Program-made: the position numbers and the translations under genes
The notes under the pieces: generated by a model
Seen by the model: the letters and a program-made list of their open reading frames with translations, nothing else
What the model was told of the DNA's origin: nothing
Database searches by the model: none
Shown: positions 2,688-64,000 of the stretch, piece after piece
How positions within the stretch are numbered: the first letter of the stretch is position 1
How the letters are laid out: each line of letters opens with the position of its first letter
Assembly: GCA_014905635.1 (NCBI GenBank)
Contig: JABVCE010000023.1
Location: 372,001 to 436,000, forward strand
Source: Scenedesmus sp. PABB004
Taxonomy: Eukaryota
DNA: 64,000 nt
Direction: 5' to 3'

Positions 2688-4627
2688 TCAGGGGGCCGCC
2701 TTGCACAGCTCCTCCAGCAGCTGGCGCCACACGTCTGGCGGCGCGCCGGCGGGCGCCTGCGGGGCGGCGGTGGCGGCGGGCGCGCGCGCGCGCGCGCGCA
2801 TGAGGGCAGCTTGGTTCGGCCGTGCAGACGCGCCCAGCCCCGCGGCGCCGCACCTTGCTCTTCAGGTCGACCACCATGCTGTCGGCTCCCCTGATCTCGC
2901 TGATGAAGAGAGATGTCAGCGCCGTCAGCGCCGTGAGGTGCAGCGCGCCGGCGGTGGTCAGACCCTCGCAGCAGTCCTGCACCGCAAGCTCGCGCAGCCC
3001 CGTCAGGCGGGCGAGCACGGTCTCCACCTCGTACCAGATGCAGATGAGGCTGTTGTGCCCACCGGTCAGCTGCAGGCGCGTCAGGCACGTCAGCGCCAGC
3101 AGCCCCTGCAGGCTCAGCGTCTCGTACTCGCCTCGTGCTCCCCAGTCGCTGCTGTACGCCAGCGTCAGCTCGCGCAGCGCGGGGCACGCTGTGGCCAGGC
3201 AGTCCACGTCCGCCTGCGCCGTCTCCAGCTCGTCGTCGTCGTGAAAGCGCGACCCAAAGGCAAGCTGCAGCCGCTGCAGGCGGGAAAACACGCGGCCGGC
3301 GGGGAAGAGGTGCGCGCCCGTGCCGCGGAGCAGATACAAGTCATAAAAGCCAGCGTACTCAAACCCGGAGCCAAAGCTGAGGCTCGTCAGCCGGCCGCTC
3401 AGCGCGGCCAGCCGCGCCCAGGCGGCCGGGCGCGGGCCGTAGCGGCTCCACAGGCCGATGGCTACGTGCTCGAGCTGCGTGCACGCGCCCACCGCCGCCA
3501 GCAGCGCGCCGCTCCGGGCGGCAACGCCACACTCCAGGTGCCGCAGGCCCGTGCACGCCGCCAGCGCCGCCGGCGCCAGCTGCAGTCCGTTCAGCTCCAG
3601 CCGCGTGAGGCCGGTCGGCAGCTGCGGCAGCTGCGACAAGTCAGTCCCTACCAGCCGCAGCTCCGCCAGCGCAGTGAGGGCGCTCACGGGCGCCAGCACC
3701 TCGACTGGCAGTCTCTCCACCCTCAGGTACAGGCGCGTGAGCTGCGTCAGGGCGCCGACAGCCGCGGCCAGCGCCGTCTGCTCCCTCACTGCGTTGCGAT
3801 CCAGCTCCAGCTCCAGCTCCAGCCGCCGCAGGCGCGTCAGCGCGCCCAGCGACTCCACCACCGCAGCGGCAGCCTGCACTCCTCTAGCAGCTCCAGGCTG
3901 GTCAGCCGGCCCGCCAGCGGCGCCAGCCCGGCGCTGCTGAGCGCTGCCAGGTCTAGGTGCCGCAGGCGCAGCGCCTCCAGCCGCACCAGCGCCTCGCAGG
4001 GCAGGGCGAGCGAGGGCGACGCCAACAGTGCGTCCAAGAACATGCGGTCCAGCCGCGCCACCTCCAGCCGCGCCACCTGCCCGCCGCGGGCGCCCAGCCA
4101 CGCCGCCAGGCCGCCGGCTTGGTGCTGCGTCGCCCAGTTCACATCGATGCTGGTCGTGGCAGCCGCCGCCGCGTCGCGCCAGTCGCTGCACGGCGCGCAG
4201 GCGGTCGGCGAGCGGCACCAACGCCAGCACGTCCGCCAGCAGCTCGCGCGGCAGGCCGCCCTGCACTTCGCTGCTGTCGCCCGCCTGCGCGTGACACGTG
4301 CGGCACAGAGCGCGCGGGGGCCTGTGAGGCCGGGCGCGCGGCGGCCGCGGGCGGGGCGGGCGCAGCGAGCAGCCGCCGCTGCTGCCGGGCGCGCGCCGCT
4401 CGCCGCGGAGGCCACGGCGGGCCGCGGCGGCGCCAGGGCGGGTGACCGGGACCTCGCCGGCCGCGGATCACGCGTGCCTGGCCCGGTCCCGCCCCGCCAC
4501 AGCGCGCCAGCGCCCGCCCGCTGCTCGAACGCGCCGAGCGCCCGCCCCCGGCTGCCCAGGCCGCCCCGCTCACCGGCGGCGCGCGGGCCCGGTCGGGCGG
4601 CGCCTGGGCGGTGGTGGGACTCGCCAT
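2688..4627 (-). CDS. F-box/LRR protein, copy 1 (3 exons; ORF kept open by compensating frameshifts)
   Basis: Exon 1 is 4627-4574 (MASPTTAQAPP...). Exon 2 is 4284-2854, with F-box start LPRELLADVLALVPLADRLRA and many LxxLxxLxL repeats. Exon 3 is 2756-2688 (APAGAPPDVWRQLLEELCKAAP*). Confidence 0.8.
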
Positions 4628-4862
4628 CGTGGCCCGAGCTGGCGCAGCGCAGCGCGGCGGCGGCACGGAGCGTGCGCTGTCGGCCGCTGCTTGCCCGGCG
4701 TGCGTGTGCGGGGGCTGCGGAGCACCTGTTGCTGCTCGTGGCGGTGCGGGGCGCGCAACGGATGGGGGCGGCAGCTGCTGAGCCGCGCAACGCGGCGCGC
4801 TGGGCCCTGCCGGCCAACCCCAGGGCCCAGCACCCGCGGCCGCGCGCTCGCGGAGCCTGTTG

Positions 4863-4867
4863 TTACA
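4863..4867 (-). terminator. TGTAA poly(A) signal for the Ig-repeat gene
   Basis: ttaca on the + strand, about 280 bp past the stop at 5145. TGTAA is the established chlorophyte poly(A) signal. Confidence 0.55.
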
Positions 4868-5144
4868 GCAGCCTGCTGAGCCTGGCGCCCCCAGATGGCA
4901 CGCGGGCACCGCCGCCCCTCAGCGGCGCCGCGCGTGGCGAGGGCCCCAGCGCCGAGCCGCCGACGCCGCCGGGTCGCAGTGTGCTAGCTAGGCGGCAGTC
5001 GAGCCGCTCCCCTGCCCCGTCCTACCCCCGTCCCGCAGTTCCGAGGCAGCTCACCCTGGCATTGCCATTCAATGCCATCTAGCCCATGACCCGCGTGACG
5101 GGGCTGACGCCGCACCGGGGCGCAGCTCCGCGCCGCGCCGGCGC

Positions 5145-6974
5145 TCACGCCGCAAACTCCACGGCCACGCCCGCGCTGCTCGACGCGCCAGGGCCGGTCG
5201 CCCAGTTGGTGGCGGTGTAGTTGAAGCGCACCTGTGGGCAGCGCCCGCGAGCGGCACAAGCTCTGCCTGCAGCGCGCCTCGACCGGGCCTGCCACCCGCG
5301 ACCGGGCCTCCCGGGCCAGCGCCCGCCCGCCCGCCGCGCGCGGCGCCCCACCGTGACCGTGCTCGGCCCGCTCGCCGGCGGCGTGAGCAGGACGCCGGGC
5401 GTGCCGTCCTGGAGCGCGTACTCGGTCTTGAAGCTGCCGGGCGAGGGAGCCCCGATGGGCTGCTCAATGTCCAGCTGCAGGCCAGACAGGTCACGCTTGT
5501 CGTTGGCCAGCACGTCCAGCCAGAGCGGCACGCGGCCTGTCATGCGGAAGCTGGCGCCCCCGGGCGGCGGCGGTGGCGGGCGGCGGCGGCGGCGGCGGCG
5601 AGTCGCACGGGGCCGGCCGGCGGGGGCCCAGCCGCGGGCCCCTCCCGCCGCGCCGCGCCGCGCCGCGCACGTGTCGTCCACCGCTGTGGGCGTGCCCGCG
5701 ACGACCACCTCGGCCGCGCCCTGGCCGGCGCCCCAGTCGCGCGTGATGGCGGTGTAGTTGAACCGCACCACGCCCGGCTCTGTCGGCGCGGCAAAGCGCA
5801 CGCAGCTGGGGTAGTCCCGCTCGTCACTCTCGTCGCAGGGCACGAGCGACACGCTGCCCTGGCCCGGTGGCGGCTGCGACACGCGCAGCAGGCGCAGCAG
5901 GCCGCCGGCGGGCTTGGTCCGCGCGTCGCCCAGGACGTCGAGCACGTGCGCCTGCCCGGCGGTCACCGAGCCATCAAAGCGCGGGAGCTCGGGCGGCGGT
6001 GCGCTGCTGCCCACCACGACCGTCGCGGCGCCGCCGGTGACGCGGCGGTCGCGCACGCGGTAGGTGAAGCTCGTCTGCGCGGCGCGAGGCACAGGCGGCG
6101 CGCGCGCGGCGCGTGCGTGGCGGGGCGGCCGCTGGCACGCGAGCGAGCGCGCCACGCCGCCAGCGCGCAGCAGCAGCTCCGCCTCACCGGCGCGCCGCGC
6201 AGCGTCACGCTGACCGCTGTGCCGTTGAGCCGCGTGATTGCCGCGGTCACGCCGGGGGGGCCGGCCGGGCCGAGCGCGGCGATCGTGAGCGGGAGGCCGA
6301 GGTGGTCCACGTCGTTCGACAGCAGGTCGGCAAACACGTACTGCGTGTGTGTGCGTGGTGGTGGTGGGGGGGGGGGTGCACGCCGTGTGGGTGCGCGAGT
6401 GTGCGCGTGCGGAGGGGGTGGGAGGGAGAAGGAGTGGAATGGGGCGAGCCCGCGGCGCAAGCGAGCGCTCCCCGGCGGTTGCCGCACCGTTGCGTTCATG
6501 CGCGGCACGTCGCGCCGGTCGTCCACCGCGTCGGGCGCGCGCACGAGCTGGACGCTCACGTTGGCGGCGCCCGCCGTGCCGTCCGGCGCCGCGGTCCGGT
6601 AGGTCAACCAGTCGCGCGCCGCCTCGGTGCCCGGCGCGTACGGCGGCGCGACGTAGCGAATGCACGGCCGCGCCTCGTCCGCGGGGCCGCACGTCGCCAG
6701 CGTCGCGCGCGCGCCGGGCAGGGTCGGCGCGCTGACCTTCGTGATGCGCAGCCCGGCGGCGCCGCCGGTTGCGAGCACGTCGAGCGTGCTGCGGCTGCCC
6801 CAGGCCCTCGTGAAAGAGTCATCAACGGGCTGGCCAGAGCCCAGCACCGCCAGCCCCGCCGCCAGGGCCAGCGCCAGGGCCGCCCCGCGCGTGCCTGCGC
6901 GGCGGCAGCGGCGGCGCGGCAGCAGCGGCGCGCGCGCGGCGACATTGGCGCCCACGCTGCTGCGCTTGACGCAT
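5145..6974 (-). CDS. Secreted protein with about 4 tandem bacterial-type Ig/cadherin-like (Big_9-like) repeats
   Basis: Signal-like AALALALAAGLAVLG. Repeated PxAVDD...LDVLxND...FxY motifs: QPVDD/LDVLA, PDAVDD/DLLSND/SFTY, LDVLGD/RFNY, PTAVDD/LDVLAND/RFNY. GT-AG introns. The start at 6974 is inferred through a 59-nt intron. Confidence 0.7.
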
Positions 6975-7366
6975 TGCCAGAAACTGATGTCGCTGGAGCT
7001 GCTCCGCTACTGCGCGCGCCCACGGCGCGGCCTGCCCCGCAAGGCAGCGATCGCATCGTGTCGGGCGCAGCCGGCAGGCCGCGCAATCGCGCCTGTCGCC
7101 GCTCGCCCGAGCATGAGCGTTGTGCAGAGACCTTGGGCTCGCGCGCGTGAGCTGTGGGCTCAGAGACAGCGGGTCGTGTCGGAGGCCGCCTGGTCGCTGA
7201 GCGTCGGGTTGAGCGCGTCGGGCTGGCTGGCCTTTTCGGAGGGAGCGCCGTGCTGGGGGTCACACGAAGCGGCCGCACGACACCGCTTCTGGGCCCGCAC
7301 CACAACCCCGGCACAGCGCGGCGCGCGCACAACACCGCCGCGCGCGGTCCGCGCGCCTCTGGCTGG

Positions 7367-9340: not shown

Positions 9341-9822
9341 CGCGGCGCGTGCGCGCCCGGCGGCAGCGCGGCGCTGCGCACAACTGCCGCCGCCGCCGCC
9401 GGTGCTGCTGCAGCGCGTGCGCCTCTTCAAGAGGAAGATCCTGGCAGCGGGTGGACGGGGCCGCCGATCTGGGGGCCGGGCGGCGCCCGGGACGGCGGCA
9501 GCAGCGGAGAACAGGCTGTTCTGAACAGCAACTCGAGAGCCCGAACCGCGGCCCTCGGCCTCCCGCCCTCTTGCAGCGCACCCGCCCGTCCCTCCCGCCC
9601 TCTCCTCGGCCCCGTCGGCCCGCGCCTGCGCGCCCGCAAGCCAGCGGCAGCCCGCGGGCAGGCGAGAGGGCCTCGCCAGCGCCCGCCGCGGCCCGCAGCG
9701 GCTCGTCCTTGTGGCCACGTGCCTCGAACGAGCGTGCCTGCCACCTCCGCAGCGGCGCCGGGCGCGCGGGGGGCGCGGGGCGCGCGCTGGGAGGCAGCAG
9801 GCCTTGCTCGCAGCGCCGCGCA

Positions 9823-11841: not shown

Positions 11842-11872
<31 letters not shown>

Positions 11873-11977
11873 TGCACGCGCAAGCGCCCGCGCGAGGCCG
11901 GGCTGGGCCAGGTGCAGCTGCACCTGGCGGCCAGCGAGCCCGCGCACAAAAAGTGCGGCGCGGGCGTCGTGGCGTAG
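9823..11977 (+). CDS. Transcriptional cyclin (cyclin T/K/L-like)
   Basis: CPSRAAGFSWKAELRYRRECC, AVVLLQRYF, VATACVFLATKI and AELAVIFAVNFDFNVEVP form a cyclin box. The tail is low-complexity. TGTAA at 12166. Confidence 0.8.
10661..10737. repeat. (GCAC)n/(CA)n microsatellite in a cyclin intron
   Basis: Directly visible. Confidence 0.9.
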
Positions 11978-12165
11978 GCGGGGGCGGGGCGGCTAGTGCA
12001 GGATCGGCAGGCTGGTCGCAGGCGGGGCGTAGCTAGGTGCAGGCGCAGGCGGGGGGCGGCGGCACTGCCAGGGATCGCTTCGGGCGCGCGCCGCCGCGGC
12101 GCGTGGTTTTTGCTCGACCCTGCGGCGACGAGGCCGCAGGCCCGCGCCGGGGTCGTGGGGCACGC

Positions 12166-12170
12166 TGTAA
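12166..12170 (+). terminator. TGTAA poly(A) signal for the cyclin gene
   Basis: tgtaa about 190 bp after the stop codon. Confidence 0.6.
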
Positions 12171-12221
12171 TGGTGCCTTTCAACAGCCACCGCCGCCGCC
12201 CGCGCCGCGGCCCCGATTGCC

Positions 12222-14943
12222 GGTGCAACTGCTTCACCCCTGCATCAACTCGACTCGTGCACGCGCACGCAAGTGACGCGTGGCGCCGCCCGCGCCGCGC
12301 TGCGGCCAGGCCCGCCGCACGCGCCCCGCCGCGCGCCCTCCAGCCCCTGGCTCGTCCGCCTCGCGGGCCGCCATCAGGAGGCCGCCTTGCACAGCTCCTC
12401 CAGCCGGCGCCACACGTCTGGCGGCGCGCCGGTGGTCGCCTGCGGGGCGGCGATGGCAGCGCCCGCACGCATGAGGGCGGCTGGCGCGGAGCGGGCCGCG
12501 CCGCCGCGCGGCCGTGCAGACGCGCCCAGCCCCGCGGCGCCGCACCGTGATTCCCAGGATGACCCTGCCTCTCTTGTGCAGCGACACACAGAGATGTCAG
12601 CGCCGTCAGCGCCGTGAGGTGCAGCGCGCCGGCGGTGGTCAGACCCCCGCGGCATTCCTGCACCGCAAGCTTGCGCAGCCCCGTCAGGCGGGCGAGCACG
12701 GTCTCCACCTCGTAGCAGATGCAGATGAGGCTGTTGTGCCCGCCGGTCAGCTGCAGGCGCGTCAGGCACGTCAGCGCCAGCAGCCCCTGCAGGCTCAGCG
12801 CCTCGCGATCGCCCGCAACGCCTCGTGTTTGCCCCAGTCGCTGCTGTACGCCAGCATCAGCTCGCACAGCGCGGGGCACGCTGCGGCCAGGCAGTCCACG
12901 TCGGCCTGCGCTGCCGCCAGCTCGTCGTCGTCAAAAAGGCGCGACCCAAAGGCAACCTGCAGCCGCTGCAGGCGTGAAAACACGCGGCCAGCGGGGAAGG
13001 GGTGCGCGCCGGTGCCGCAGGGCAGATACACGCGCCCGCCAGCGTAGCCAAATCCGAAGCCAACGCTGAGGCTCGTCAGCTGGCCGCTCAGCGCGGCCAG
13101 CGGCGCCCAGGCGGCCGCGGGCGGGCCGTCGTGGTTCCCTGGGTTGATGGCTGCGTGCTCGAGCTGCGTGCACGCGCCCACCGCCGCCAGCAGCGCGCCG
13201 CCCTGGGCGCTGAGCTCACACTTGCCCAGCTCCAGGTGCCGCAGGCCCGTGCACGCCGCCAGCGCCGCCGGCGCCAGCTGCAGCCCGTTCAGCTCCAACC
13301 GCGTGAGGCCGGTCGGCAGCTGCGTCGACTGCAAGGAGCGACCCACCTCCCGCACCCGCGGGTGCAGCCGCAGCTCCACCAACGCTGTGAGGGCGCTCAC
13401 GGGCGTCGCCGCCACCTCGCCCGTGAGGCCGAACCCGTCCAGGTTCAGGCACGTGAGCTGCGTCAGGCCGCCGATCGCCACGACCAGCGCTGCCGTCTGC
13501 TCGCTGTTGGCTGCGTCGCGGTCCAGCTCCAGCTCCAGCCGCCGCAGGCGCGTCAGCGCGCCCAGCGACTCCACCACCGCAGCGGCAGCCTGCACTCCTC
13601 TAGCAGCTCCAGGCTGGTCAGCCGGCCCGCCAGCGGCGCCAGCCCGGCGCTGCTGAGCGCTGCCAGGTCTAGGTGCCGCAGGCGCAGCGCCTCCAGCCGC
13701 ACCAGCGCCTCGCAGGGCAGGGCGAGCGAGGGCGACGCCAACAGTGCGTCCAAGAACATGCGGTCCAGCCGCGCCACCTCCAGCCGCGCCACCTGCCCGC
13801 CGCGGGCGCCCAGCCACGCCGCCAGGCCGCCGGCTTGGTGCTGCGTCGCCCAGTTCACATCGATGCTGGTCGTGGCAGCCGCCGCCGCGTCGCGCCAGTC
13901 GCTGCACGGCGCGCAGGCGGTCGGCGAGCGGCACCAACGCCAGCACGTCCGCCAGCAGCTCGCGCGGCAGGCCGCCCTGCACTTCGCTGCTGTCGCCCGC
14001 CTGCGCGTGACACGTGCGGCACAGAGCGCGCGGGGGCCTGTGAGGCCGGGCGCGCGGCGGCCGCGGGCGGGGCGGGCGCAGCGAGCAGCGCGCGCCGCCG
14101 CCGCTGCCGGGCGCGCGCCGCTCGCCGCGCGGCCACGGCGGGCCTCGGCAGCGCCAGGGCGGGCGCCCGGGACCGCGCCGGCCGCGGATCACGCGTGCCT
14201 GGCCCGGTCCCGCCCCGCCACAGCGCGCCAGCAGCCGCCCGCTGCTCGAACGCGCCGAGCGCCCGCCCCCGGCTGCCCAGGCCGCCCCGCTCACCGGCGG
14301 CGCGCGGGTCCGGTCGGGCGGCGCCGGGGAGGTGGTGGGACTCGCCATCGTGGCCCGAGCTGGCGCAGCGCAGCGCGGCGGCGGCACGGAGCGTGCCGAC
14401 AGTCGGCCGCTGCTCGCCCGGCGTGCGTGTGCGGGGGCTGCGGAGCACCTGTTGCTGCTCGTGGCGGTGCGGGGCGCAACGGATAAGGGCGGCAGCTGCT
14501 GAGCCGCGCAACGCGGCGCGCTGGGCCCTGCCGGTCAACCGCAGGGCCCGGGCACCCGCGGCCGCGCGCTCGCGGAGCCTGTTGTTACAGCAGCCTGCTG
14601 AGCCTGGCGCCCGGAAGCAGGCCTGTATGGCACGCGGGCGCCGCCGCCCCTCGGTGGCGCCGCGCGTGGCGAGGCCCCCAGCACCGAGCCGCCGACGCCG
14701 CCGGGTCAAAGTGTGTGTGCTAGCTAGGCGGCAGTCGAGCCGCTCCCCTGCCCCGTCCTACCCCCGTCCCGCAGTTCCGAGGCAGCTCACCCCGGCATTG
14801 CCATTCAATGCCATCTAGCCCATGACCCGCGTGACGGGGCTGACGCCGCACCGGGGCGCAGCTCCGCGCCGCGCCGGCGCTCACGCCGCAAACTCCACGG
14901 CCACGTCCGCGCTGCTCGACGCGCCGGGGCCGTCCGCCCAGTT
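12222..14943. repeat. Segmental duplication unit B (partner at about 2535-5207)
   Basis: Contains F-box/LRR copy 2 plus a copy of the last codons, stop and 3' UTR of the Ig-repeat gene. Confidence 0.9.
12374..14348 (-). pseudogene. F-box/LRR copy 2 (truncated or pseudogene)
   Basis: Same exon structure as copy 1 (ATG 14348, exon 2 from 14000). An insertion near 12800-12825 gives ...KHEALRAIARR* with a stop at 12795. The last donor is also out of phase relative to copy 1. Confidence 0.75.
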
Positions 14944-15012
14944 CGGCGACCAGTTTGGTTCCCACGCGCCGCAAGGGCAGCCGCGGCTGGGCCGCCTCGA
15001 GGCGGCGTGAGC

Positions 15013-35579: not shown

Positions 35580-37382
35580 CGGCGGGGCCGGGTTTTGGCC
35601 CGGCGGCGCCGCGGGAGCGCGAATTTTGGCGGGGCGGGGCCAGGTTTTGGCGGGGCGGGGCCGGGTTTTGGCCCGGCGGCGCCGCGGGAGCGCGAGTTTT
35701 GGCCCGGCGGGGCCGGGTTTTGGCCCGGCGGGGCCGGGTTTTGGCCCGGCGGCGCCGCGGGAGCGCGAATTTTGGCGGGGCGGGGCCAGGTTTTGGCGGG
35801 GCGGGGCCGGGTTTTGGCCCGGCGGCGCCGCGGGAGCGCGAGTTTTGGCCCGGCGGGGCCGGGTTTTGGCCCGGCGGGGCCGGGTTTTGGCCCGGCGGCG
35901 CCGCGGGAGCGCGAATTTTGGCGCGGCGGGGCCGGGTTTTGGCCCGGCGGGGCCGGGTTTTGGCCCGGCGGCGCCGCGGGAGCGCGAATTTTGGCGCGGC
36001 GGGGCCGGGTTTTGGCCCGGCGGGGCCGGGTTTTGGCCCGGCGGCGCCGCGGGAGCGCGAATTTTGGCCGGGCGGGGCCAGGTTTTGGCCCGGCGGGGCC
36101 GGGTTTTGGCCCGGCGGCGCCGCGGGAGCGCGAATTTTGGCCGGGCGGGGCCGGGTTTTGGCCCGGCGGCGCCGCGGGAGCGCGAGTTTTGGCCCGGCGG
36201 GGCCGGGTTTTGGCCCGGCGGGGCCGGGTTTTGGCCCGGCGGCGCCGCGGGAGCGCGAATTTTGGCCGGGCGGGGCCGGGTTTTGGCCCGGCGGGGCCGG
36301 GTTTTGGCCCGGCGGCGCCGCGGGAGCGCGAATTTTGGCGGGGCGGGGCCGGGTTTTGGCCCGGCGGCGCCGCGGGAGCGCGAATTTTGGCCGGGCGGGG
36401 CCGGGTTTTGGCCCGGCGGCGCCGGGTTTTGGCCCGGCGGCGCCGCGGGAGCGCGAATTTTGGCGGGGCGGGGCCGGGTTTTGGCCCGGCGGGGCCGGGT
36501 TTTGGCCCGGCGGCGCCGCGGGAGCGCGAATTTTGGCCGGGCGGGGCCGGGTTTTGGCCCGGCGGCGCCGGGTTTTGGCCCGGCGGCGCCGCGGGAGCGC
36601 GAATTTTGGCCGGGCGGGGCCGGGATTTGGCGGGGCGGGGCCGGGTTTTGGCCCGGCGGCGCCGCGGGAGCGCGAATTTTGGCGGGGCGGGGCCGGGTTT
36701 TGGCCCGGCGGGGCCGGGTTTTGGCCCGGCGGCGCCGCGGGAGCGCGAATTTTGGCCGGGCGGGGCCGGGTTTTGGCCCGGCGGCGCCGGGTTTTGGCCC
36801 GGCGGCGCCGCGGGAGCGCGAATTTTGGCCGGGCGGGGCCGGGTTTTGGCCCGGCGGCGCCGCGGGAGCGCGAGTTTTGGCCCGGCGGGGCCGGGTTTTG
36901 GCCCGGCGGGGCCGGGTTTTGGCCCGGCGGCGCCGCGGGAGCGCGAATTTTGGCGGGGCGGCGCCAGGTTTTGGCGGGGCGGGGCCGGGTTTTGGCCCGG
37001 CGGCGCCGCGGGAGCGCGAGTTTTGGCCCGGCGGGGCCGGGTTTTGGCCCGGCGGGGCCGGGTTTTGGCCCGGCGGCGCCGCGGGAGCGCGAATTTTGGC
37101 GGGGCGGGGCCGGGTTTTGGCCCGGCGGCGCCGCGGGAGCGCGAATTTTGGCCGGGCGGGGCCGGGTTTTGGCCCGGCGGCGCCGCGGGAGCGCGAATTT
37201 TGGCGGGGCGGGGCCAGGTTTTGGCGGGGCGGGGCCGGGTTTTGGCCCGGCGGCGCCGCGGGAGCGCGAGTTTTGGCCCGGCGGGGCCGGGTTTTGGCCC
37301 GGCGGGGCCGGGTTTTGGCCCGGCGGCGCCGCGGGAGCGCGAATTTTGGCGGGGCGGGGCCAGGTTTTGGCGGGGCGGGGAA
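35580..37382. repeat. About 1.8-kb higher-order satellite of 21-bp and 31-bp monomers
   Basis: The 21-mer TTTTGGCCCGGCGGGGCCGGG (with variants) and the 31-mer TTTTGGCCCGGCGGCGCCGCGGGAGCGCGAR combine into 52- or 73-bp units. Confidence 0.97.
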
Positions 37383-38826: not shown

Positions 38827-38872
<46 letters not shown>

Positions 38873-42548: not shown

Positions 42549-44541
42549 TCACCACTGAGCGCACCGCGCCTGCAGCTGGCGCCACACGTCTGGGGGCGCG
42601 CCGGCGGGCGCCTGCGGGGCGCGGGCGCGGGCGGCGGCGGCGGGCAGGTGGGCGGCGGGGCACAATGCATTTTCGCACGGCTCCGCCGCGCAGCGCGCCG
42701 CCAGCAGGCCCCCGCGCGCGCCCCTGTCACACACCTGGCTGGTCAGAAAGGTGCGGTCGTTATCGTCGTCCAGCCACACCCGCAGAGACGACAGCCGCCT
42801 GAGCGCTGTCAGGTGCAGCGCGCCGGCGGGGGTCAGGTCGTAGCAGCAGCGTTCCATCTCCAGCTCACGCAGGCCGGTCAGGCGGGCGAGCACGGTCACC
42901 GCTTGGGCGTCGTCAACCTTCACGTAGGCGGGCTGGCCATCTAAGCTCCCATGCAGCAGCTGCAGGCGCGTCAGGCGAGTCAGCGCCAGCAGCCCGCGCA
43001 GGCTCAGCGGCTCCGGCGTGTCCAGCGATCCAAAGCCACCGTACTCCACCGCCAGCTCGCGCAGCGCCGGGCAGGCTGCCGCCAGGCCGTCCACGTCGGC
43101 CTGCGCCGCCGCCCGCACGCGGGTACCGCGCACGTCGACATTCTCTGCAGCAAAGCGAATGGCCAGCTGCTCGAGGCGCGAAACATGCAGCCAGCCGGGA
43201 AGAGGTGCGCGCTCACGCCGCAGGGCAGATAGATGCCCTCGAAACTGTTGAAGCCGGGAGTAAGGTTGAGGCTCGTCAGCGCACCGCTCAGCGCGGCCAG
43301 CGGCGCCCACGCGACCGCAGGCAGCTGCTCGTCGCCCAGGCCCCAGATGGTCAACTGCTCGAGCTGCGTGCACGCGCCCACTGCTGCCAGCAGCTCGCCT
43401 CCCGGGGCGCTGAAGTTACATCCGCCCAGGTCCAGGTGCCGCAGGCCCGTGCACGCCGCCAGCGCCGCCGGCGGCAGCTGCAGTCCGTTCAGCTCCAGCC
43501 ACGTGAGGCTGGTCGGCAGCCGCGGCATCTGCACGGAGGCAGCTCCCTCCGGCTGCAGCCGCAGCTCAGCCAGCGCCGCCAGGCCGCTCACGGGCGTCGC
43601 CGCCGCCTCGCCAGTGAGGCTGCACTCGTCCAGGTTCAAGTTCAGGCGCGTGAGCTGCGTCAGGCCGCCGACCGCCGCGGCCAGCGCTGCCATCTCCTCG
43701 CTGTTGGCGGCGTCACCATCCAGCTCCAGCTCCAGCCGCCGCAGGCGCGTCAGTGCGCCCAGCAACTCCACCGCCGGCAGCGGCAGCCCGCACCAATCCA
43801 GCTCCAGGCTGGTCAGCTGGCCCGCCAGCGGCACCAGGCCGGCGCCGCCAGGCGTCTCCAGGTCCACGCCCTTCAGGCGCAGCGCCTCCAGCCGCACCAG
43901 CGCCTCGCAGGGCAGGGCGAGCGAGGGGCACGCCCCCAGTGCGTCCCAGACCCCTTGCACCTCCAGGCGCGCCACCTGCCCGCCGCGGGCGCCCAGCCAC
44001 GCCGCCAGGCTGTCGGCACGGGGCTGCATCGCCTGTTTCACATCGATGCTGGTCGTGGCAGCCGCGGCCGCGTCGCGCCAGTCGCTGCACGCCAGCGCGG
44101 CGCGCAGGCGGTCGGCGAGCGGCACCAGCGCCAGCACGTCCGCCAGCAGCTCGCGCGGCAGGCCGCCCTGCTCGCCGTTGCTGTCGTCCGCCTGCGCGTG
44201 GGCGCAAACGGCACAGGGCGCGACACGGCGTGTGAGTCCGGGCGCGCGGCGGCCGCGGGCGGGGCGGGCGCATTCAGCAGCGCGCGTCGCCGCCGCTGCC
44301 GGGCGCGCGCCGCGCGCCGCGCGGCCACGGCGGGCCGCGGCAGCGCCAGGGAGGGCGCCCGGGACCGCTCCGGCCTCGAATCACGCGCGCCTGGCCCGGT
44401 CCCGCCCCGCCACAGCGCGCCAGCAGCCGCCGCTGCTGCTCGAACGCGCCGAGCGCCCGCCCCGGCTGCCCAGGCCGCCCCGCTCACCGGCAGAGCGCGG
44501 GTCCGGTCGGGCGGCGCCGGGGAGGGGCGGCGACTCGCCGT
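42549..44541 (-). pseudogene. F-box/LRR copy 3 (ATG changed to ACG; 1-bp frameshift near 43180)
   Basis: Intact F-box LPRELLADVLALVPLADRLRAALACSDWR, LRRs and a PPDVWRQL exon. The position homologous to the start reads ACG (44541). MFRASS vs expected FSRLEQ shows the frameshift, which may be an assembly error. Confidence 0.65.
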
Positions 44542-46440: not shown

Positions 46441-46490
<50 letters not shown>

Positions 46491-47557: not shown

Positions 47558-47588
<31 letters not shown>

Positions 47589-54238: not shown

Positions 54239-54884
54239 GCGCCCACGCGGCGGAGACGGCGGCGGCGGCTGTGGCTGCTGCTGCGGAGTGTGGGTTGGCG
54301 CCGGGGCTGCAACAACCCGCGCGAGCGCTCCGCACTCCGCGCCCGCGCGCCCGGCGTGTCGCCGGCGGCGGAGCTGGCGCCAGCGGGCGGCCGCAGCAGG
54401 TCGCGGCGTGGCGGCACAGCAGCTGGCCAGCGCGCCGGAGGAGCAGCAGCTGCCGGCGCGCTGTCCGGCCTGAGCGCTCAGGCCGGCGCCGGCGCTGGCC
54501 GGCGGGGCGGCGCGGCGCCGCGCCGCGGCGAGCGGGGGGCCGGTGTGGCGCAGCAGCGAGCTGGCGAGTTGGTGACAGTTGGCTGCCGCGTCCCCCCGCT
54601 GCGCAGCAGGCTCCGCCGCCGGCCGCCGCCTCCGCGCCGTGCCGCCCGCCCCGCGCCGCCCGCTGCCGCTGGGGCCGCGGCGCCGCGCGCGCAGGGCCGC
54701 CCGCGATGTGATCGGCGGCCCGGGATGGCGCGCGGAGCGGCGCGCGGCCTCCCTCGATAATGCGCCCGCCGCTGAACCGCGGCCCATCGCGCGCTCGCGC
54801 GGGCTGCGTCCCAAGGCCCGGGGCCCCGCCTGGACCGCCCTCTCTCAGGCGCACGACACGTGCCGTTGGGGCAGCGACGCCAAG

Positions 54885-56658: not shown

Positions 56659-57022
56659 CGCGACGCGACGCGGCGACGGGGACGGCGCGGCTGCTGGTCG
56701 GCGGGGCCGCGACGGGGGCTGCAGGGCGCGCCCCCGGCCGCCGCGGATGGCGCGCGGGGGACCGCGCGGCCGATGCAACCCCGCCCTTTGGTCGCCGTTG
56801 CGCCGCCGTCGCGTTGACCGCCAGCCCTCTCCTCGCCTCCGCACAGCACGCACGCCCCGCCAGCGCGCCCCCACACCCGCAGCGCGCAGCAGCGCCGCGC
56901 GGGCGCACGCAAGCGCCGGTCGCGGCGCGCCGCGACCGCTCGCCCGCCCGCCCGCGGCGCGCTGTTGCCCGCCCCCGCGCGGCGCGTAGCAAACGTTTGC
57001 GTAGCGTAGCACCGCGCTCGCC

Positions 57023-60000
57023 ATGGGCGCCGCGGCTGACGTTCAAGCGCCGCGCGCCGGCGGTCGCCGCGCGGCGCCGGCGGCGCCCAGGGAGCGGCCG
57101 CGCAGCAGGAGCAAGGGCCGGCCGGCCTCCGCGGCTGCGCGGGTCAAGGCGGAGCTCGCCGTGCTGGCGGCGGCTGGCAACGAGCAGCTGTGGAGCCTGC
57201 GCCCGGCGGTGTGCGCCGCCAGCGTGGACGCCGGCCGTGCGCTGCAGGCGCAGGTGCTGGACGAGCTGCAGCAGCTTGAACTGTTGCAGCAGCAGGTCGG
57301 ACTCACGTACAGCGCCGCACGCGCGGCGGCGGCGCACCAGCGCGAGCCGGCGGTCGCCGCCGCCGGCAGCCAGGCGACGGCCAGCCCGGTCGTGCCGCCC
57401 GCGCCGGCCGCGCCCGCCGACCAGCCGGGCTGCGTGGGCAGCTGGGCTGAGGCGCTGGGCTGCGTGGACGACGGCGGCCTGGAGGCCCGCGCGGCGCGGG
57501 AGCTGCGCGACATGCACAGCTGGCTCAGCGACCAGGAGATGCGGCTGACGCTGGTGAGCGGACGACGGGGCCGCCCGCGCGCCACTCACCGCGCCCGGCC
57601 CCGTCGGGCGGCGCCCGCCCTGCTCGCTGACGCGGGGCACGCCGCCTGCAGCCGAGCGTGGCGGCGCGCTACTCCAACGCGGCCGTCGCGGCGCGCGTGA
57701 GCACGCTGAACTGGGAGCTCCAAGGCCTGGCACAGCGCCGCGCCGCCTGCGAGGCCGCGCTCGCCGAGCTGCGCGCGGCACCGGGCTCGCCGCAGCCGCT
57801 GCAGCGGCGCCAGTCGTTTGCAGACTGGGCGGCCGCCGCGGACGGCGCGCCGCGGGGCGGCGCGGAGCGGTCGGGCGCGGGCGATGGCGCGGCCGTGGGC
57901 GACGGCGGCAGCGACGCCCGGCGGGGCAGCGACGGCTCGGACGAGGAGGCCGAGGATGTGGCGGCGGCGGCAGCAGCAGCTGAGGGCTACGTTGGCAGCG
58001 GCCTGGGGGGCCGCGCCAGCGCGCGCAGGTGGGGGCGCCAGCCGGCGCGCGCGCCCTTTGGCACCCCGCGCGTCCTGCCGCGCCGCCTGACGCCACGCCG
58101 CGGCGCAGGTCCGTGCCGCGCAGCAGCGACGTGCTGCAGCTCTCGCACAGCGGGCTGCGGCCGCAGCAGCTGGGCCGGGTGGCAGCGGCGCTGGTGGCGG
58201 CGCCCTGGGTCACGCGGCTCGACCTGTCGGGTGCGCGGCGGCCGCGCGCCGTTGTGCTGCGCCCGGCGGTTCCGCGCCGAGCCGGCGCCTCGCGCTGCGC
58301 CCGGCAAAAGCCGCGCCGGGCCAACCCCCCCCCCCCCCCCCCCCCCGACGCCACCCGCCGTGGCCGGCCCCGCAGGCAACGCACTGACGGACGGCGCGGT
58401 GGCAGAGCTGGCCGGGATGCTCGCCGCCAGCCCTGGCACGCCCGGCGTGACGTCGCTGTCGCTGTCGCGCAACCCACTCACGTGGCGCTGCGCGCCCAGC
58501 CTGGCGCAGCTGCTCGGCGGCGGCGGCGGCGGGCTGCGGTGCCTGGCGCTGGAGGGCGTGGCGCTCGGCGACCGCGGTGCCGCGGTGCTCGCGCCCGCGC
58601 TGGCCGCCAGCAGGCACCTGAGCAAGCTCAGCCTCACGTGTGCGGAGCTGAGCGACGCGGGCGGCGCCGCGCTGTGCGCTGCCGGCGCGGCGCTGGTCGA
58701 GCTGGACCTGGGCTGGAACGCGCTCGGCCGCGAGACGGCGAGGGCGGTCGCGGCGGCGCTCGGGTCGCCCGGCTGCCGCCTCTCGCGGCTGGGCCTGAGC
58801 CGCTGCGGCCTCGACGACACCGCCGGCGCGGCCGTCCTCGACGCGCTCCTGCCGGGCGAGCCCGGACTCACTGGCGCCTGCGCGCCGTGGCGCTGCGTCG
58901 ACCTGTCGGACAACGCCCTGGAGGGCGGCGCGGCGCTCTGCGCCGCCGCGGTCGTGGCGGCGCACGCGAGCCGGCGGCACGACCGCCTGCCAGGCGACGG
59001 CGCCGGCGGCAAGGGGCCCGCCAGCTGCGGCGCGGGCGGCCTGCGGGCGCCGCGCCGATCCCTGCTGCTGGGGGGCAACCCGCTCGGCGCGTCGGGCGTG
59101 CGCTGCATAATGCGCACCCTCGGCGGCTTGCCCGGGGCCGCGCTGGCGGCGGCTGGCCGCGGCCTCGGCTGCGCCGGCGAGCAGCCGGGCGGCCTGGAGG
59201 CAGGGTCGCTCGGCGCAGCCGGCAGCGCGGCGGAGCAGGGCGGCGGCGCGGCGCTGCCAGCGGTCGACGTGGCCATCCCGCGCGTGGCGCTGCTGGCGCG
59301 GGAGCGCGGCTTCCGCAGCGGCATGCGCGACGGCCGCCACGCGAGCGCGCTGTCACCGCAGGTGCCGTCCCTCCTTGACGCGGTGGCCGCGCCGCCCGGC
59401 GGCAGGGGCCGGGCTGGCGGCGCAGGCGGCGGCGGCGAGGCGGGGGCGGCGGCGGCGCTGGTCGTCACCGAGGCGGCGGCGGGCTTTGACCTGGCCTGCC
59501 CGGCGGGACAGTACCGGCTGGCACTGGCGCACCCTGCCACGAAGCACCTGCTCGGCCAGCTCCTGGCGCTCCGCGCGGCGCTGCAGGCGCTGCAGGCGGA
59601 CGTCGCGGCGCAGCAGCAGCAGTGGCAGCAGGAGCGGTCGGGCGCTGCCGCAGCCGTTGCGGCCGCGGCGGCGGTCACCGCGGCGGCGGTCACCGCGGCG
59701 GCGGCGGGTGACGCGCCGCAGCCGGGCCCGGCGGGAGAGCCCGCCGGGGGCAGCGGGCGCGTCGCGCGCACGAGCAGCACCGCCGCGTCCGCCGCGGCGC
59801 CGCCCGCGTCCGCCGCGTCCAGGCCCGCAACGCCGCCGACGCCCCCGCGCCCGGGCTCGGCGCCCGCACGGCGCCGCGCGCCGCCGGCGTGCCCCGTCGA
59901 CGTGCCGGCGCTGGCCGAGCTGCGGCTGGACGGCAAGGCCGTGAAGCTGGAGCAGCTGCTGGCGCGTCTGCCCGCGGCGACCGGCGGCGGGGCGGCGCGG

Positions 60001-63000
60001 GCGACGCCGCCGACCCGGCAGCGGAGGCGGCGGGCGCCGCCGCAGACGGCGCGCCCGCGCCCGCGGGCGCGCGGCGGCCGAAGCAGGCCCGGCAGCTCGA
60101 GTTCACCGTGCGCGCGGCGGCGGTGCTGGTCGGCGCGGAGCCGCCGCTGCTGCCCGCCGGGCTGCTGCGCTGGGCGCTGGGCGCGATGGCGGGGCACGCC
60201 GAGGTGTGGAAGCTGCAGCTGCTGGAGCTGCTGCTGCCGGACTGGCTGCTGCTGCCCTGGCAGGCCGTGGAGCTGCTGGGCGCGTTTGACCGGTGAGGCG
60301 GGGCGGCGGGGCGGCGGGGCGGCGGCCTGACAGCGCGCGCGCGCGCGCGCGCAGTGTGATGCGCGCCCGCCGCCCGCCCGCCGCGGCCGCGGCCAGGGAG
60401 CTGGGCGCAGAGGAGCAGCTGAGCGCCGCGGGGCTGCTGTGGGCGCACCTGGCGCAGCCGATGGAGTTTTGGGACGCCGTCCTGCCGGTCAGCCTCACGC
60501 CGCACCAGCAGCGGCGCTTCCGGGACATGTGCGTGCGTGCGGGGGAGGGGAGGGGGGGGGGCGCCCCTCTCACCGCTATCCCGGCCTGTGTGAAGGGGTG
60601 AGCGCTCCCCCGGCCCCACCCCCGCGCCGCCGCAGGCTGGGCCCGCAGCTGGTGTGCCTGGACCGGCGCAACCTGACGGGGCCGTACGCGCTGCACCTCG
60701 GCTGCGCCGTGCACCGCGCCGTCGCGGCGCGCCTGCAGGCCGCGGCGCTGCAGGACGGCGCGACCGCCGAGTGCAGGCGCGGGCGGACCGCCCGCGCTCT
60801 GCCGGCCGGGCCGCTGCTGACCGCCCCCCTCCCCCCAAACCCTGCTGCCGCACCCCCGCCCTCAGGTACTACCTGAGCTGGCGCAACGCGGCGCTCAACG
60901 GCGCGCCCCTGCGGGACGACGCGGTGAGGCAGCTGCAGGCCTACGCGCTGCCCCACGCCGGCAGCCTGCGCCTCGACTACGCCTCCTACCAGGCGCGCGG
61001 GGCCCTAAACCCTCGCCGCGGCGGCACACCAAGCTCCACATCGAGCGCGCGCGCCCCGCCGCGCCACGCCGCGTCGCCCCCGCAGGTGCCCGACCCCGGC
61101 TGCCCGCCCGCGCCGCCCGACGACCTGCGCCGGCTGCTGGGGGACCTGCGGCGGCTGCACGCCGCGTACGACAGGTGCCGGCGGCGCCCCGCGCGGCCGC
61201 GCGCGCGGTAACGCGCGCGTGCAGCCTTGCAGGACGCTGCTGCCCGCCGGCGCCGCAGGCACCTGCTGGAGCTGCGGCGCGAGTTCTGGCCGGGCGGTCT
61301 GCGCCGCGCCTGCGGCGACGGGGGCCAGGCGGCAGCGGCGGCGGCGGCGCGCCCGACGCGGCCTGGTGGGCACGAGGCGCTCGCCGCCGCCGAGGCTGCA
61401 CCCCGTCAGCCGGCGCCGCCGGGCGGCGGCACGCCGTGGTGGGCGGCGTCGGGCCTCGACGCCAGCGCCCTGCTGCTCAGGCACCAGTCCGCCACCGAGC
61501 TCCCGCTCCCGGGGCGCAGCCGGCCGGGCAGCAGCCGGCCGGGCAGCAGGCCGGCCAGCAGCCGCGGGCTAAGCCGCCGCAGCACGCGCAGCACGGCGCC
61601 GCGGCCCGGCACCGCGGCCAGCGCAGGCAGCGCCGGCACCGCCAGCGCCGGGGGTGGGGGAACGACCGACGAGCAGCTGCTGGCGTGCCTGCTTGGCGCG
61701 CCCGAGCCGCGCGGCGCGGCCGCCACGTTTGCCTGCCTCGGACAGCGCCGAGTGGTGGGCGTGCTGGGCCTGCTGGGCGGCATGCCGCAGGGCCCCGCCG
61801 CCGTCGCGGCGATGCTGGGCTGCCTCTCGCCGGTCGTGGCGGCGAGGTGGGCCGCGGCGCTCGGGCCGAGGCACGCCGAGCGGGGGCGTAGGCGGGGGCA
61901 CGGCGAGGGATGCAGCCGTCCCACCTGCGGCGCCGCCGCGCAGGTTGGTGCACGGCGTTGCGGACCAGGCCCCGCTGCTGCCCGCGGCACTGCGGTGCGC
62001 AGCGCTGCCGCTGCTGGCCCCCGCCGTAGCGGAGTCGCTGCGCGAGGTCGCCGCCGCCATGGGCCGCGCCGCCGCGTTGCGCGACGTGCAGCAGCTGCTG
62101 CTGGTGCGCCGCTTTGCGGCGGCCGTGCCCGGGCTGAGCTGCGACCAACTGGGCGCGGTGCTGCGCGCGCTGCGCGCGCCGGGCGGCGCCGCGGGCGGCA
62201 CGCGCTGCGGCGCGGCCGTGGCGCTGTGGGCGCGCGTGGTGGACCGGCGCGCGCTGGTCCAGGTCTTTGCGGGCCTGGCCCCGGGGGAGCAGCTCGCCCT
62301 GATGGCCTGCCTGGGCAGCTACCACGTGTGGGCCGCGCTGCGCGCGCCGGCGGGGCTGCACTGGCGGCTGGACCTCACGGTGCCGGAGCAGCGCGACGTG
62401 GCGCGCGAGGTCATAAGGGTGCGAGGGGAGCGAGGGAGCGGGGCGGGGCTGGCTGCCGGCGCGCGCTGTGCCGCGCGCGCCGCCGCCCACCCACGTATGA
62501 TGCCTCGCGGCGCGCGGCCGGCCCGCCCAGGAGGCGGTGCGCGCGAGCCTGGCGGAGCGCGCGCGCAGCGGGTCGCGCGTGCGCCAGCTGCTGCGCCTGC
62601 GCGCGTCTGGCAAGGAGGTGGCCGACCCCGAGGACGACAAGCTCTGGCTCAGCCTGGAGAGCAAGCACAGCGACCTGGAGTTTGACTACGCGCCCACGCA
62701 GGAGCAGGGCCTGCTCGCGCAGCAGCGCGCGGCGGCGCGCATCCTCGCGGCGTGGCGGCGGCGGCGTGCGCGCCGCGCCGCGGGCAGCCGGCCCGCCACG
62801 CCCGGCGCGGCGGCCGAGGGCGCGGGGGGCCTGCCGCCGGCGCCGGCACCGTGCCGCGCGCCCCCGCCTCCGGCGACGCCGCTCGGCAGCGACAGCTGCA
62901 GCTTCAGCGGTGCGAGTGGCCTTGACAGCGGCGGCACCACCTCCAGCCTCTCCACCGGCGGCAGCTGCGCCAGCTTTTACACCAGCGGCAGCTGCACGCC

Positions 63001-63130
63001 GCTCTCAGCCGCCAGCGCTGTGTCAGACGGCGAGGTGCCCCGCGTGCTCGACCTCCACGCGGGCCTCGCCGCGCAGCGCGCGGCGCTGGGCGGCAGCGCG
63101 CGCCCCACGCCGCGCCTGGGCGCCGAGTGA
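57023..63130 (+). CDS. Large RI-type LRR protein with repeated 'G-x-Y-x-L-x-L' modules and an IQ-like motif
   Basis: LDLSGNALTD, LSLSRNPL, LDLGWNALG and VDLSDNAL. Repeats PAGQYRLAL, LTGPYALHL and PAGLHWRLDL. IQ-like [16 protein letters not shown]. Confidence 0.75.
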
Positions 63131-63407
63131 GCGGGCCAGCGGCACCGGCACGGGCGGCGGCGGCTGTGTGTGGGGGCTGCGGCCGGCGTGACTGCAACCC
63201 GCGCGCGGCCTGACGCGGTGCAGGGCCCAGCCCCGACGGCCCGGCGGTTGAGCGCACGCGCGCGCGCCCCGGCTCCCCTCAGCCCCAGGGCCAAGGCTCT
63301 CACAGCCACGCCCAGGCAGCGCCGGCCGCGTGCCCCCGCGCAGCGCGAGCGAGCGGACCCGCTCCCCTCCGCGCCGCCGCCCTCCGCCGCCGCCGCCAGC
63401 CTGCGTG

Positions 63408-64000
63408 ATGGCGAGCCCCACCACCGCCCAGGCGCCCCCCGACCGGACCCGCGCTCTGCCGGTAAGCGGGGCGGCCTGGGCAGCCGGGGGCGGGCGCTCG
63501 GCGCGTTCGAGCAGCGGGCGGCTGCTGGCGCACCGTAGCGGGGCGGGACCGGGCCAGGCGCGCGTGATCCGCGGCCGGCGCGGTCCCGGGAGCCCCCCCT
63601 GGTGCTTCCGCGGCCCGCCGTGGCCCGCGCGGCGAGCGGCGCGCGCCCGGCAGCGGCGGCGACGCGCGCTGCTGAATGCGCCCGCCCCGCCCGCGGCCGC
63701 CGCGCGCCCGGACTCACACGCCGTGTCGCGCCCTGTGCCGTTCGTGCCACGCGCAGGACGACAGCAACGGCGAGCAGGGCGGCCTGCCGCGCGAGCTGCT
63801 GGCGGGCGTGCTGGCGCGGCTGCCGCGCGCCGGCCGCCTGCGCGCCGCGCTGGCGTGCAGCGACTGGCGCGACGCGGCCACGGCTGCCACGACCAGCATC
63901 GTTGTGAAGGAGGCGACGCAGCCCCGCGCCGACGGCCTGGCAGCGTGGCTGGGCGCCCGCGGCAGGCAGGTGGCGCTGCTGGAGGTGGAGGCGCTGGTGC
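63408..64000 (+). CDS. F-box/LRR copy 4 (runs off the window; inverted relative to copies 1-3)
   Basis: Exon 1 is 63408-63461 (MASPTTAQAPPDRTRALP), followed by a GTAAGC donor. Exon 2 starts at 63757: DDSNGEQGGLPRELLAGVLARLPRAGRLRAALACSDWR. Confidence 0.85.
   Translation, partial: MASPTTAQAPPDRTRALPVSGAAWAAGGGRSARSSSGRLLAHRSGAGPGQARVIRGRRGPGSPPWCFRGPPWPARRAARARQRRRRALLNAPAPPAAAARPDSHAVSRPVPFVPRAGRQQRRAGRPAARAAGGRAGAAAARRPPARRAGVQRLARRGHGCHDQHRCEGGDAAPRRRPGSVAGRPRQAGGAAGGGGAG

What the first reader, a model, noticed from the sequence alone, without database searches (positions are those of the whole stretch)
2688..64000. Dispersed F-box/LRR family with a fixed scaffold, hypervariable LRR faces and mosaic copies
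Seen: four copies (2688-4627, 12374-14348, 42549-44541, 63408 to the window end) sit between unrelated housekeeping genes. They share the 54-nt first exon and even the first intron. The helical scaffold is nearly invariant (APAALAACTGLRHL, LLAAVGACTQLE, AWAPLAALSG), but the residues in and after each LxLx strand differ sharply: LYLRVERL / LNLDGFGL / LNLNLDECSL, and VAIGLWSRY / AAINPGNHD / LTIWGLGDE. Copy 2 matches copy 1 at about 13526-14089, then resembles copy 3 in the next LRRs (DAANSE...LTGExAATPVS). Known: the concave LRR face binds ligands, and F-boxes recruit SCF ligases. Inference: a birth-and-death recognition family diversified by segment exchange, possibly for defence or substrate recognition in an alga.
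Basis: partly seen in the sequence, partly recalled or inferred. Interest (0 to 1): 0.7.

Follow-up and report, generated by a model that had tools for sequence, protein, structure and literature searches.

The report
Mosaic algal F-box recognition gene cluster
A green alga carries a small cluster of ubiquitin-ligase adaptor genes that swap segments, vary at their binding surface and often break, much like plant resistance genes, and two sister clusters in the same genome show clear selection for new binding surfaces.

Summary
The four copies are real F-box/LRR genes (AlphaFold pLDDT 90; top Foldseek hits D3/MAX2 and TIR1). They belong to a six-copy cluster spread over 118 kb of one contig of a GC-rich green alga. 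Mosaicism holds: PHI p=0.0002, copies 1 and 2 are identical over 568 nt, and a sixth copy switches partners mid-gene. Homogenisation is polar: fourfold-site divergence between the two 3' types is 4% in the F-box part and 29% in the last LRRs. Variation concentrates at strand-exit positions and loops, but for this cluster omega there is only 1.0-1.7 and is not robustly above 1. Two sister clusters give clear positive selection at binding-face sites: a 12-copy F-box/LRR cluster and an F-box/ankyrin cluster. Best reading: a birth-and-death family of SCF substrate adaptors evolving like plant Type I resistance genes; a non-self target is inferred, not shown. Drift is a serious rival for this cluster. 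Expression, SKP1 binding and read support for junctions and frameshifts are untested. Known kind of evolution; I found no description for green algae in nine library searches.

The parts
2688..4627 (-). Copy A (c1): exon 1 4627-4574, intron 1, exon 2 4284-2854, intron 2, exon 3 2756-2688. Frame open end to end (517 codons) but F-box destroyed by a compensated -8/-1 shift
   Evidence: no F-box hit in the as-assembled product
3863..4192 (-). Stretch of copy A read in the alternative frame, between the 8-nt deletion (about 4192) and the 1-nt deletion (about 3863)
3806..4373 (-). 568-nt tract identical in copies A and B (end of intron 1, F-box, first LRRs), carrying both shared deletions
3652..3805 (-). 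Divergent middle tract of copy A, 69-71% identical to each of the other five copies
   Evidence: one environmental contig matches A at 3527-3776 with 3 differences
2508..5207 (-). 2.7-kb duplication unit shared by A and B, including about 580 nt upstream (starting in the last exon of A's upstream neighbour) and about 180 nt downstream
12374..14348 (-). Copy B (c2): same three exons; breaks at about 13908, 13579, 12815 and 12580; first stop after 419 codons
13522..14089 (-). Copy B side of the 568-nt identical tract
42549..44541 (-). Copy C (c3): ACG at the start position, intact F-box (over Pfam cut-off), 1-nt deletion at about 43183, first stop after 413 codons; A/B-like 5' flank, D/E-type 3' half
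63408..64000 (+). Copy D (c4), 5' part: exon 1 63408-63461, intron 1, exon 2 from 63757; intact when followed beyond the window (G000:C17 to about 437.4 kb)

Best explanation
A lineage-specific cluster of FBXL-type SCF substrate adaptors under birth-and-death evolution with frequent sequence exchange. Each intact gene (D, E, F) encodes a protein with an N-terminal F-box that should dock on the single SKP1 (inferred from family knowledge) and a solenoid of about 16 strands whose concave face and strand-exit loops should bind a target for ubiquitination (fold shown by prediction; binding inferred). Copies arise by local duplication and are then separated and flipped among housekeeping genes (duplication unit and breakpoint scars shown; order of events inferred). 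Gene conversion keeps intron 1, the F-box and the first repeats nearly uniform, while long exchanges recombine diverged recognition halves (shown statistically). About half the copies decay. The most likely driver is recognition of changing non-self proteins from intracellular parasites or viruses (inferred from the sister clusters' selection pattern and from analogy).
For: AlphaFold model of copy F exon 2: pLDDT 90.2, pTM 0.89, three N-terminal helices then an LRR solenoid; 12 of the first 12 listed Foldseek rows are F-box/LRR SCF receptors (D3/MAX2, TIR1, FBXL2). One Skp1 locus. Recombination: PHI 0.226 vs 0.356, p=0.0002 on 261 sites; 8 of 15 pairs with over-long identity runs after correction; the 3' segment rejects the 5' tree (AU p about 1e-37), F moving from D/E to A/B. 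Fourfold divergence ABF vs CDE 35/823, 77/649, 161/562 from 5' to 3'; intron 2 55-70% between types vs intron 1 88-97%. Omega F-box 0.32-0.46, scaffold 0.42-0.69, x7/x8 1.09-1.70, loop 1.03-1.56. 3 of 6 copies disrupted; 5 of 8 abutting frame switches in 104.7 kb of coding-like sequence lie in family copies, which are about 11 kb of it; none in 23 kb of HSP70 and dynein exon matches. Sister C7 F-box/LRR cluster: omega x5 1.37-2.64, x7/x8 1.45-2.37, scaffold about 0.4, p<1e-4 in 5 of 6 fits; observed 2.71 against a maximum of 1.48 in 59 recombination-null simulations. Sister C5 F-box/ankyrin cluster: M1a/M2a LRT 87.4, null maximum 0.7 in 12 simulations.
Against: For this cluster omega>1 is not robust: joint test p<0.05 in 2 of 8 fits; M1a/M2a LRT 19.6 was exceeded by 1 of 18 recombination-null runs and nearly matched by another; top-scoring sites were mostly next to gaps. 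PHI on synonymous sites alone is not significant (22 sites, p=0.37; C7 12 sites, p=0.063). The 5' segment does not reject the 3' tree (AU p=0.069). The most conservative C7 fit gives p=0.055. The F-boxes of D, E and F score 21-22 bits, under the 24.3 cut-off, in hmmscan, though just over it in the genome search. The SDA1 gene in this window also has an apparent 1-nt frame break, so single breaks can be assembly errors.
Confidence: 0.55

Rival explanations
1. Genomic drift: the cluster is a largely dispensable pool of duplicates. The fold-bearing residues are weakly purified, surface and loop residues evolve neutrally, conversion is a by-product of proximity, and copies decay at random, as argued for lineage-specific plant F-box genes.
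For: Omega at exposed sites is statistically indistinguishable from 1 in 6 of 8 fits; scaffold omega is high (0.42-0.69); 3 of 6 copies are broken; the region is full of rearrangement scars unrelated to these genes. PMC3030570 (passages) describes this pattern for lineage-specific plant FBX genes.
Against: Sister clusters exceed neutrality at binding-face positions; 8 of 16 top C7 sites fall on 53 pre-defined face codons of 386; 11 of 11 C5 copies examined are open; F-box omega stays at 0.1-0.46.
Confidence: 0.3
2. The adaptors diversify against endogenous or conspecific targets (mating or self/non-self discrimination, selfish-element antidotes, hybrid incompatibility) rather than pathogens.
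For: Same molecular signature would result; F-box genes do this in S-RNase self-incompatibility (recalled) and in Caenorhabditis hybrids (search listing only, PMC11573670 and PMC12680543).
Against: No linked toxin or mating gene was seen among the neighbours identified; several independent clusters with two repeat types fit an external driver better (inference).
Confidence: 0.09
3. The mosaics and frame breaks are mainly assembly or polishing artefacts (collapsed consensus between copies, homopolymer errors, haplotype switching).
For: The shared -8/-1 lie inside a perfect-identity tract that short reads cannot place uniquely; three 1-nt breaks are in short homopolymers; SDA1 shows a similar break. 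No laid contig spans a junction or a break in the A/B form.
Against: Copies have unique flanks 10-38 kb apart; the F switch covers more than 600 nt at 85-90% identity, not 100%; the synonymous gradient and intron contrast cannot come from polishing; A's odd middle tract occurs in an independent environmental contig (3 differences vs 40-43 for other copies); break density is far above background.
Confidence: 0.06

Closest known systems
FBXL-type SCF receptors (D3/MAX2, TIR1, COI1, FBXL2, SKP2)
   Same: N-terminal F-box followed by an LRR solenoid; top Foldseek matches.
   Different: 14-17% identity, TM-score about 0.4; those are conserved low-copy genes, these are a recent local expansion with conversion and decay. 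No orthology implied.
Unstable, lineage-specific F-box families of nematodes and flowering plants (PMC8665587, PMC3719486, PMC3030570; Thomas 2006 recalled)
   Same: Clustered duplication, conserved F-box, variable C-terminal binding domain, many pseudogenes, debated immunity versus drift (passages).
   Different: Those mostly carry FBA, kelch or FTH-type domains; here LRR (and ankyrin in a sister cluster), in a unicellular chlorophyte, in clusters of 6-13 copies interspersed with housekeeping genes.
Type I RGC2 NLR genes of lettuce (PMC4683639, passages)
   Same: Chimeric paralogs from frequent sequence exchange with diversifying selection in a cluster.
   Different: NLRs signal through an NB-ARC domain; these have an F-box and no NB-ARC hit; resistance function is shown there and not here.
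Ectocarpus ROCO-LRR and NB-ARC-TPR candidate receptors (PMC3341825, abstract and outline)
   Same: Algal repeat proteins with birth-and-death and diversifying selection on repeats.
   Different: There each repeat is one exon and is shuffled; here all LRRs lie in one 1.4-kb exon and exchange is by conversion or crossover inside it.

Membership tests
F-box/LRR (FBXL) protein | N-terminal F-box motif | tested here: met
   PF12937 26.2 bits over cut-off 24.3 in C; 21.4-22 bits (E about 2e-4, under cut-off) in D, E, F by hmmscan; all four over cut-off in the genome search; three helices at residues 13-45 of the model. Absent from A as assembled.
F-box/LRR (FBXL) protein | C-terminal LRR solenoid | tested here: met
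   About 16 strands alternating with helices, pLDDT 90; Foldseek; LRR_14 hits below cut-off.
F-box/LRR (FBXL) protein | Binds SKP1 and forms an active SCF ligase | not testable with these tools
   One conventional SKP1 gene is present; no complex prediction was obtained and no experiment exists.
Unstable (birth-and-death) F-box family | Recent lineage-specific clustered duplication with pseudogenes | tested here: met
   6 copies at 79-90% identity in 118 kb; nothing but the genome's own copies at E<=1e-30 among 1.84 billion representatives (2 hits); 3 of 6 disrupted as assembled.
Unstable (birth-and-death) F-box family | Purifying selection on the F-box | tested here: met
   Omega 0.32-0.46 here, 0.14-0.23 in C7.
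Unstable (birth-and-death) F-box family | Positive selection on the substrate-binding domain | tested here: inconclusive
   This cluster: p<0.05 in 2 of 8 fits, site-model signal inside the null. Sister clusters C7 and C5: met.
Type I resistance-gene-like evolution | Chimeric paralogs from frequent sequence exchange | tested here: met
Type I resistance-gene-like evolution | Presence/absence variation across genotypes | tested here: inconclusive
   Only low-depth metagenome contigs; two pieces from run X2 match no assembled copy fully.
NLR immune receptor | NB-ARC or NACHT domain | tested here: not met
   No such Pfam hit in any copy scanned; the gene model leaves no room for one.
Ectocarpus-type exon-shuffled LRR receptor | One repeat per exon | tested here: not met
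   All repeats lie in exon 2.

The most novel reading that the evidence does not exclude
Scenedesmaceae, which have few NLRs, run an SCF-based intracellular immune repertoire: several chromosomal clusters of F-box adaptors with LRR or ankyrin binding faces under diversifying selection, whose SKP1-docking ends are kept uniform by polar gene conversion while recognition halves are swapped by crossovers between inverted copies that flip, rather than delete, the essential genes lying between them.
Probability: 0.28. Interest if true: 0.72.

Novelty: new member of a known kind. Interest (0 to 1): 0.45.

Why it matters
How chlorophyte algae recognise intracellular parasites is open, and the idea that fast-evolving F-box families are immune receptors has been argued against drift for plants and nematodes. 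A unicellular alga with one SKP1 and a few small, countable clusters (6, 12 and about 13 copies) gives a compact test bed, with named intact copies and named variable positions. The window's own cluster is the weakest of the three for selection and the best for showing exchange.

Tried and rejected
Site models on all columns gave a large M1a/M2a LRT (57), rejected because the top sites lay beside gaps and the signal halved away from gaps and fell inside a recombination null. The first class-based fits had mis-anchored strands (4 of 16; 4 of 17 for C7) and were replaced. Sequencing runs: no RNA holder listed; three freshwater metagenomes gave only 150-360-nt pieces, none spanning a junction or a break in the A/B form. 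Word-index homolog searches found only the genome's own copies or generic LRR proteins; 10 of 148 distant relatives were looked up and none had an informative name, so their taxonomy is unknown; my sense that their consensus motif is a large Tetradesmus/Scenedesmus family is recalled, not tested. The ESM Atlas gave F-box/LRR look-alikes without a specific family. Earlier scan notes: nothing found. Reading c2 as a simple c1/c3 chimera was rejected. A transposon carrier was not seen: the shared flanks are gene-derived, but no dedicated repeat-library search was made. Thomas 2006 is not held. Supplements of PMC13315243 were not read and could list F-box or LRR expansions.
Full report
Observation. 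The window is 79.6% GC. Self-BLAST and translation show four related genes at the stated places. A search of the own genome G000 (40 Mb, 80 contigs) gave 9 matches: six at 80-100% identity on contig C17 between 374.7 and 492.1 kb, two at 67-68% on C67 and one short piece (protein search). I call the six A (c1), B (c2), C (c3), D (c4), E and F. All have a 54-nt exon 1, an intron of 289-302 nt, an exon 2 of about 1.4 kb holding the F-box and all repeats, an intron of 85-157 nt and a short exon 3; database gene models of E and C use the same second intron, and that of E the same first intron. The genome's SKP1 exon is 97-98% identical to Tetradesmus and Scenedesmus proteins, which places the organism among Scenedesmaceae-type green algae. 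Neighbours in the window are unrelated genes (49 coding-like segments scanned out of 116 found).

D, E and F are intact. A and B share an 8-nt deletion in the F-box and a 1-nt deletion about 330 nt later; A stays open for 517 codons but has no F-box hit, B has two further breaks and stops after 419 codons, and C has ACG at the start position and stops after 413 codons. As controls, 58 HSP70 and 48 dynein DHC_N2 exon matches (22,971 nt) showed no abutting matches, smallest gaps 84 and 67 nt. A coding-potential scan of 244 kb (104,709 coding-like bases) found 8 abutting frame switches, 5 in family copies (about 11 kb by my estimate) and 3 elsewhere, of which one, in SDA1, looks like a 1-nt loss on inspection and two were not inspected. 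Breaks are therefore strongly enriched in the family, but the assembly is not free of indels and any single 1-nt break may be an error.

Fold. AlphaFold on F exon 2 with a 92-sequence alignment gave pLDDT 90.2 and pTM 0.89: three helices at residues 13-45, then about 16 strand-helix repeats. The first 12 listed Foldseek rows are D3/MAX2, TIR1 and FBXL2 complexes, at 14-17% identity and TM about 0.4. Pfam F-box-like passes its cut-off in C (26.2 bits) and falls just short in D, E and F by hmmscan, while the genome search puts all four just over. A profile search of 1.84 billion representatives found 831 proteins at E<=0.001 and only 2, both own-genome copies, at E<=1e-30: the architecture is widespread, this subfamily is local. 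Exon 1 has no hydrophobic stretch (by inspection), consistent with a cytosolic or nuclear protein. One Skp1 locus was found. Binding to it is inferred; no complex prediction was obtained.

Exchange. On 261 informative sites PHI is 0.226 against 0.356 +/- 0.008 (p=0.0002), and 8 of 15 pairs have identity runs longer than permutation allows after correction (rate variation along the gene also lengthens runs). A and B are identical over 568 nt and D and E over 292 nt. F groups with D/E in the 5' segment (bootstrap 91) and with A/B in the 3' segment, where 50 informative sites split ABF from CDE; the 3' data reject the 5' tree (AU about 1e-37), the 5' data do not reject the 3' tree (0.069). C carries an A/B-like 5' flank and a D/E-type 3' half, F the reverse in its coding part. 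Fourfold-site divergence between ABF and CDE is 35/823, 77/649 and 161/562 from 5' to 3'; intron 1 is 88-97% identical in all pairs, intron 2 55-70% between types. The F-box end is thus homogenised and the recognition end is not. Against this: PHI on synonymous sites only is not significant, on 22 sites. One low-depth environmental contig matches A's odd tract with 3 differences where other copies differ by 40-43, weak independent support.

Selection in this cluster. Strand positions were defined from the LxxLxLxx motif and coincide with the model's strands; that x5, x7 and x8 face the ligand is established LRR geometry, not computed here. With trees per segment, omega is 0.32-0.46 (F-box), 0.42-0.69 (scaffold), 0.65-1.28 (x5), 1.09-1.70 (x7/x8) and 1.03-1.56 (following loop). 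One GY94 fit gave x7/x8 above 1 at p=0.006; the joint MG94 test reached p<0.05 in 2 of 8 fits. The M1a/M2a LRT of 19.6 on 372 gap-distant codons was exceeded in 1 of 18 simulations without positive selection but with tip swaps every 30 codons. 27 of 32 placeable alignment gaps start 2-12 codons after a strand leucine.

Genome context. PF12937 matched 78 places of 143 candidates (57 over cut-off by my count), with 12 on C7 within 655-801 kb and 13 on C5; C. reinhardtii has 38 and C. vulgaris 43 F-box proteins by a different count (PMC12636532, passage). The C7 genes are F-box/LRR with the same exon layout; 8 of 12 are open and 4 broken. On the 8, omega is 1.37-2.64 at x5 and 1.45-2.37 at x7/x8 against about 0.4 for scaffold and 0.2 for the F-box, p<1e-4 in 5 of 6 fits and 0.055 in the most conservative; the observed 2.71 exceeds all 59 recombination-null values (maximum 1.48); 8 of 16 top sites fall on 53 face codons of 386; the F-box is again homogenised (4.6% against 15-19%). 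The C5 genes are F-box/ankyrin; 11 of the 13 were fetched, all open; on 9 of them (two with an extra repeat left out) the M1a/M2a LRT is 87.4 with omega 6.2 on 10% of sites, null maximum 0.7 in 12 runs. The null simulations share the fitted model, so they do not cover multi-nucleotide mutation.

Dispersal. The A/B unit begins in the last exon of A's upstream neighbour, so B's unit was copied from A's locus, and a 75-nt remnant of that unit start lies just downstream of F, as in a former head-to-tail pair. Inverted duplicated segments abut the 3' ends of E and F. I infer tandem birth followed by local inversions. Crossover between inverted copies would swap gene halves and flip the intervening essential genes, while crossover between direct copies would delete them; this fits C and F but is not shown.

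Mechanism and odds. Shown: architecture, exchange, polar homogenisation, decay as assembled, concentration of change at strand exits, positive selection in two sister clusters. Inferred: SKP1 docking, substrate ubiquitination, non-self targets. I give 0.55 to a diversifying recognition family, 0.30 to drift, 0.09 to endogenous or conspecific targets, 0.06 to artefact.

Comparison and novelty. The pattern matches unstable F-box families of nematodes and plants (PMC8665587, PMC3719486, PMC3030570; passages) and Type I RGC2 genes (PMC4683639; passages). It is not an NLR and not an exon-shuffled Ectocarpus-type receptor (PMC3341825; abstract and outline). A 38-genome Scenedesmaceae study discusses NLRs and has no occurrence of 'F-box' in its main text (PMC13315243; passages; supplements not read). 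Nine library searches returned no description of such clusters in chlorophytes; the library lacks most subscription papers. Verdict: real, a new member of a known kind, interest 0.45.

Noticed in passing
G000:C7:654000-802000 (L058-L070) and C7:566000 (L071): Second F-box/LRR cluster, 12 copies in mixed orientation, 8 open, with much clearer face-site positive selection than the window's cluster; a thirteenth diverged copy at 43% identity.
   Followed up: yes
G000:C5:59000-709000 (L048-L057): Dispersed cluster of short F-box/ankyrin genes, 11 of 11 examined open, fixed scaffold with periodic hypervariable sites, M1a/M2a LRT 87. The repeat type resembles that of giant-virus ankyrin proteins (recalled, not tested).
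   Followed up: partly
window 54381-54853 and G000:C17:450112-450584: About 470 nt upstream of the L18A ribosomal protein gene are 94% identical, inverted, to the stretch between copy E's stop and the L37 ribosomal protein gene; identity ends at the same pyrimidine-rich site before both genes. Two ribosomal protein genes seem to share one duplicated promoter, perhaps through an inversion.
   Followed up: partly
window about 53035: Apparent 1-nt frame break in the SDA1 gene with no room for an intron; likely a residual assembly error.
   Followed up: partly
G000:C17:463888-464935 vs 489189-489772 and 494433-494828: Nested inverted duplicates of the sequences on either side of copy F and its neighbour; further inverted pairs at 409389-410022/515244-515876 and 462077-462549/464966-465438.
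   Followed up: partly
window 35581-37380: Satellite of 73-nt period (21-nt subunits with T runs), about 1.8 kb, between genes.
   Followed up: no
G000:C67:1383000-1415600 (L007, L008): Two diverged relatives in inverted orientation 30 kb apart, 84% identical to each other, each with a frame switch.
   Followed up: partly
G000:C6:702000-777000: Five more F-box-like matches in 75 kb, one of them F-box/LRR.
   Followed up: no
P0006: The database gene model of copy E is fused to the downstream L37 ribosomal protein, and that of copy C (P0007) skips the frame break with an extra intron; both look like annotation artefacts.
   Followed up: partly
run X2 on window 2799-3370: Two low-depth contigs carry variants that match no assembled copy fully (13 of 16 listed differences shared with F in one, at most 4 of 11 with any copy in the other), hinting at further alleles or copies in the wild.
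   Followed up: partly
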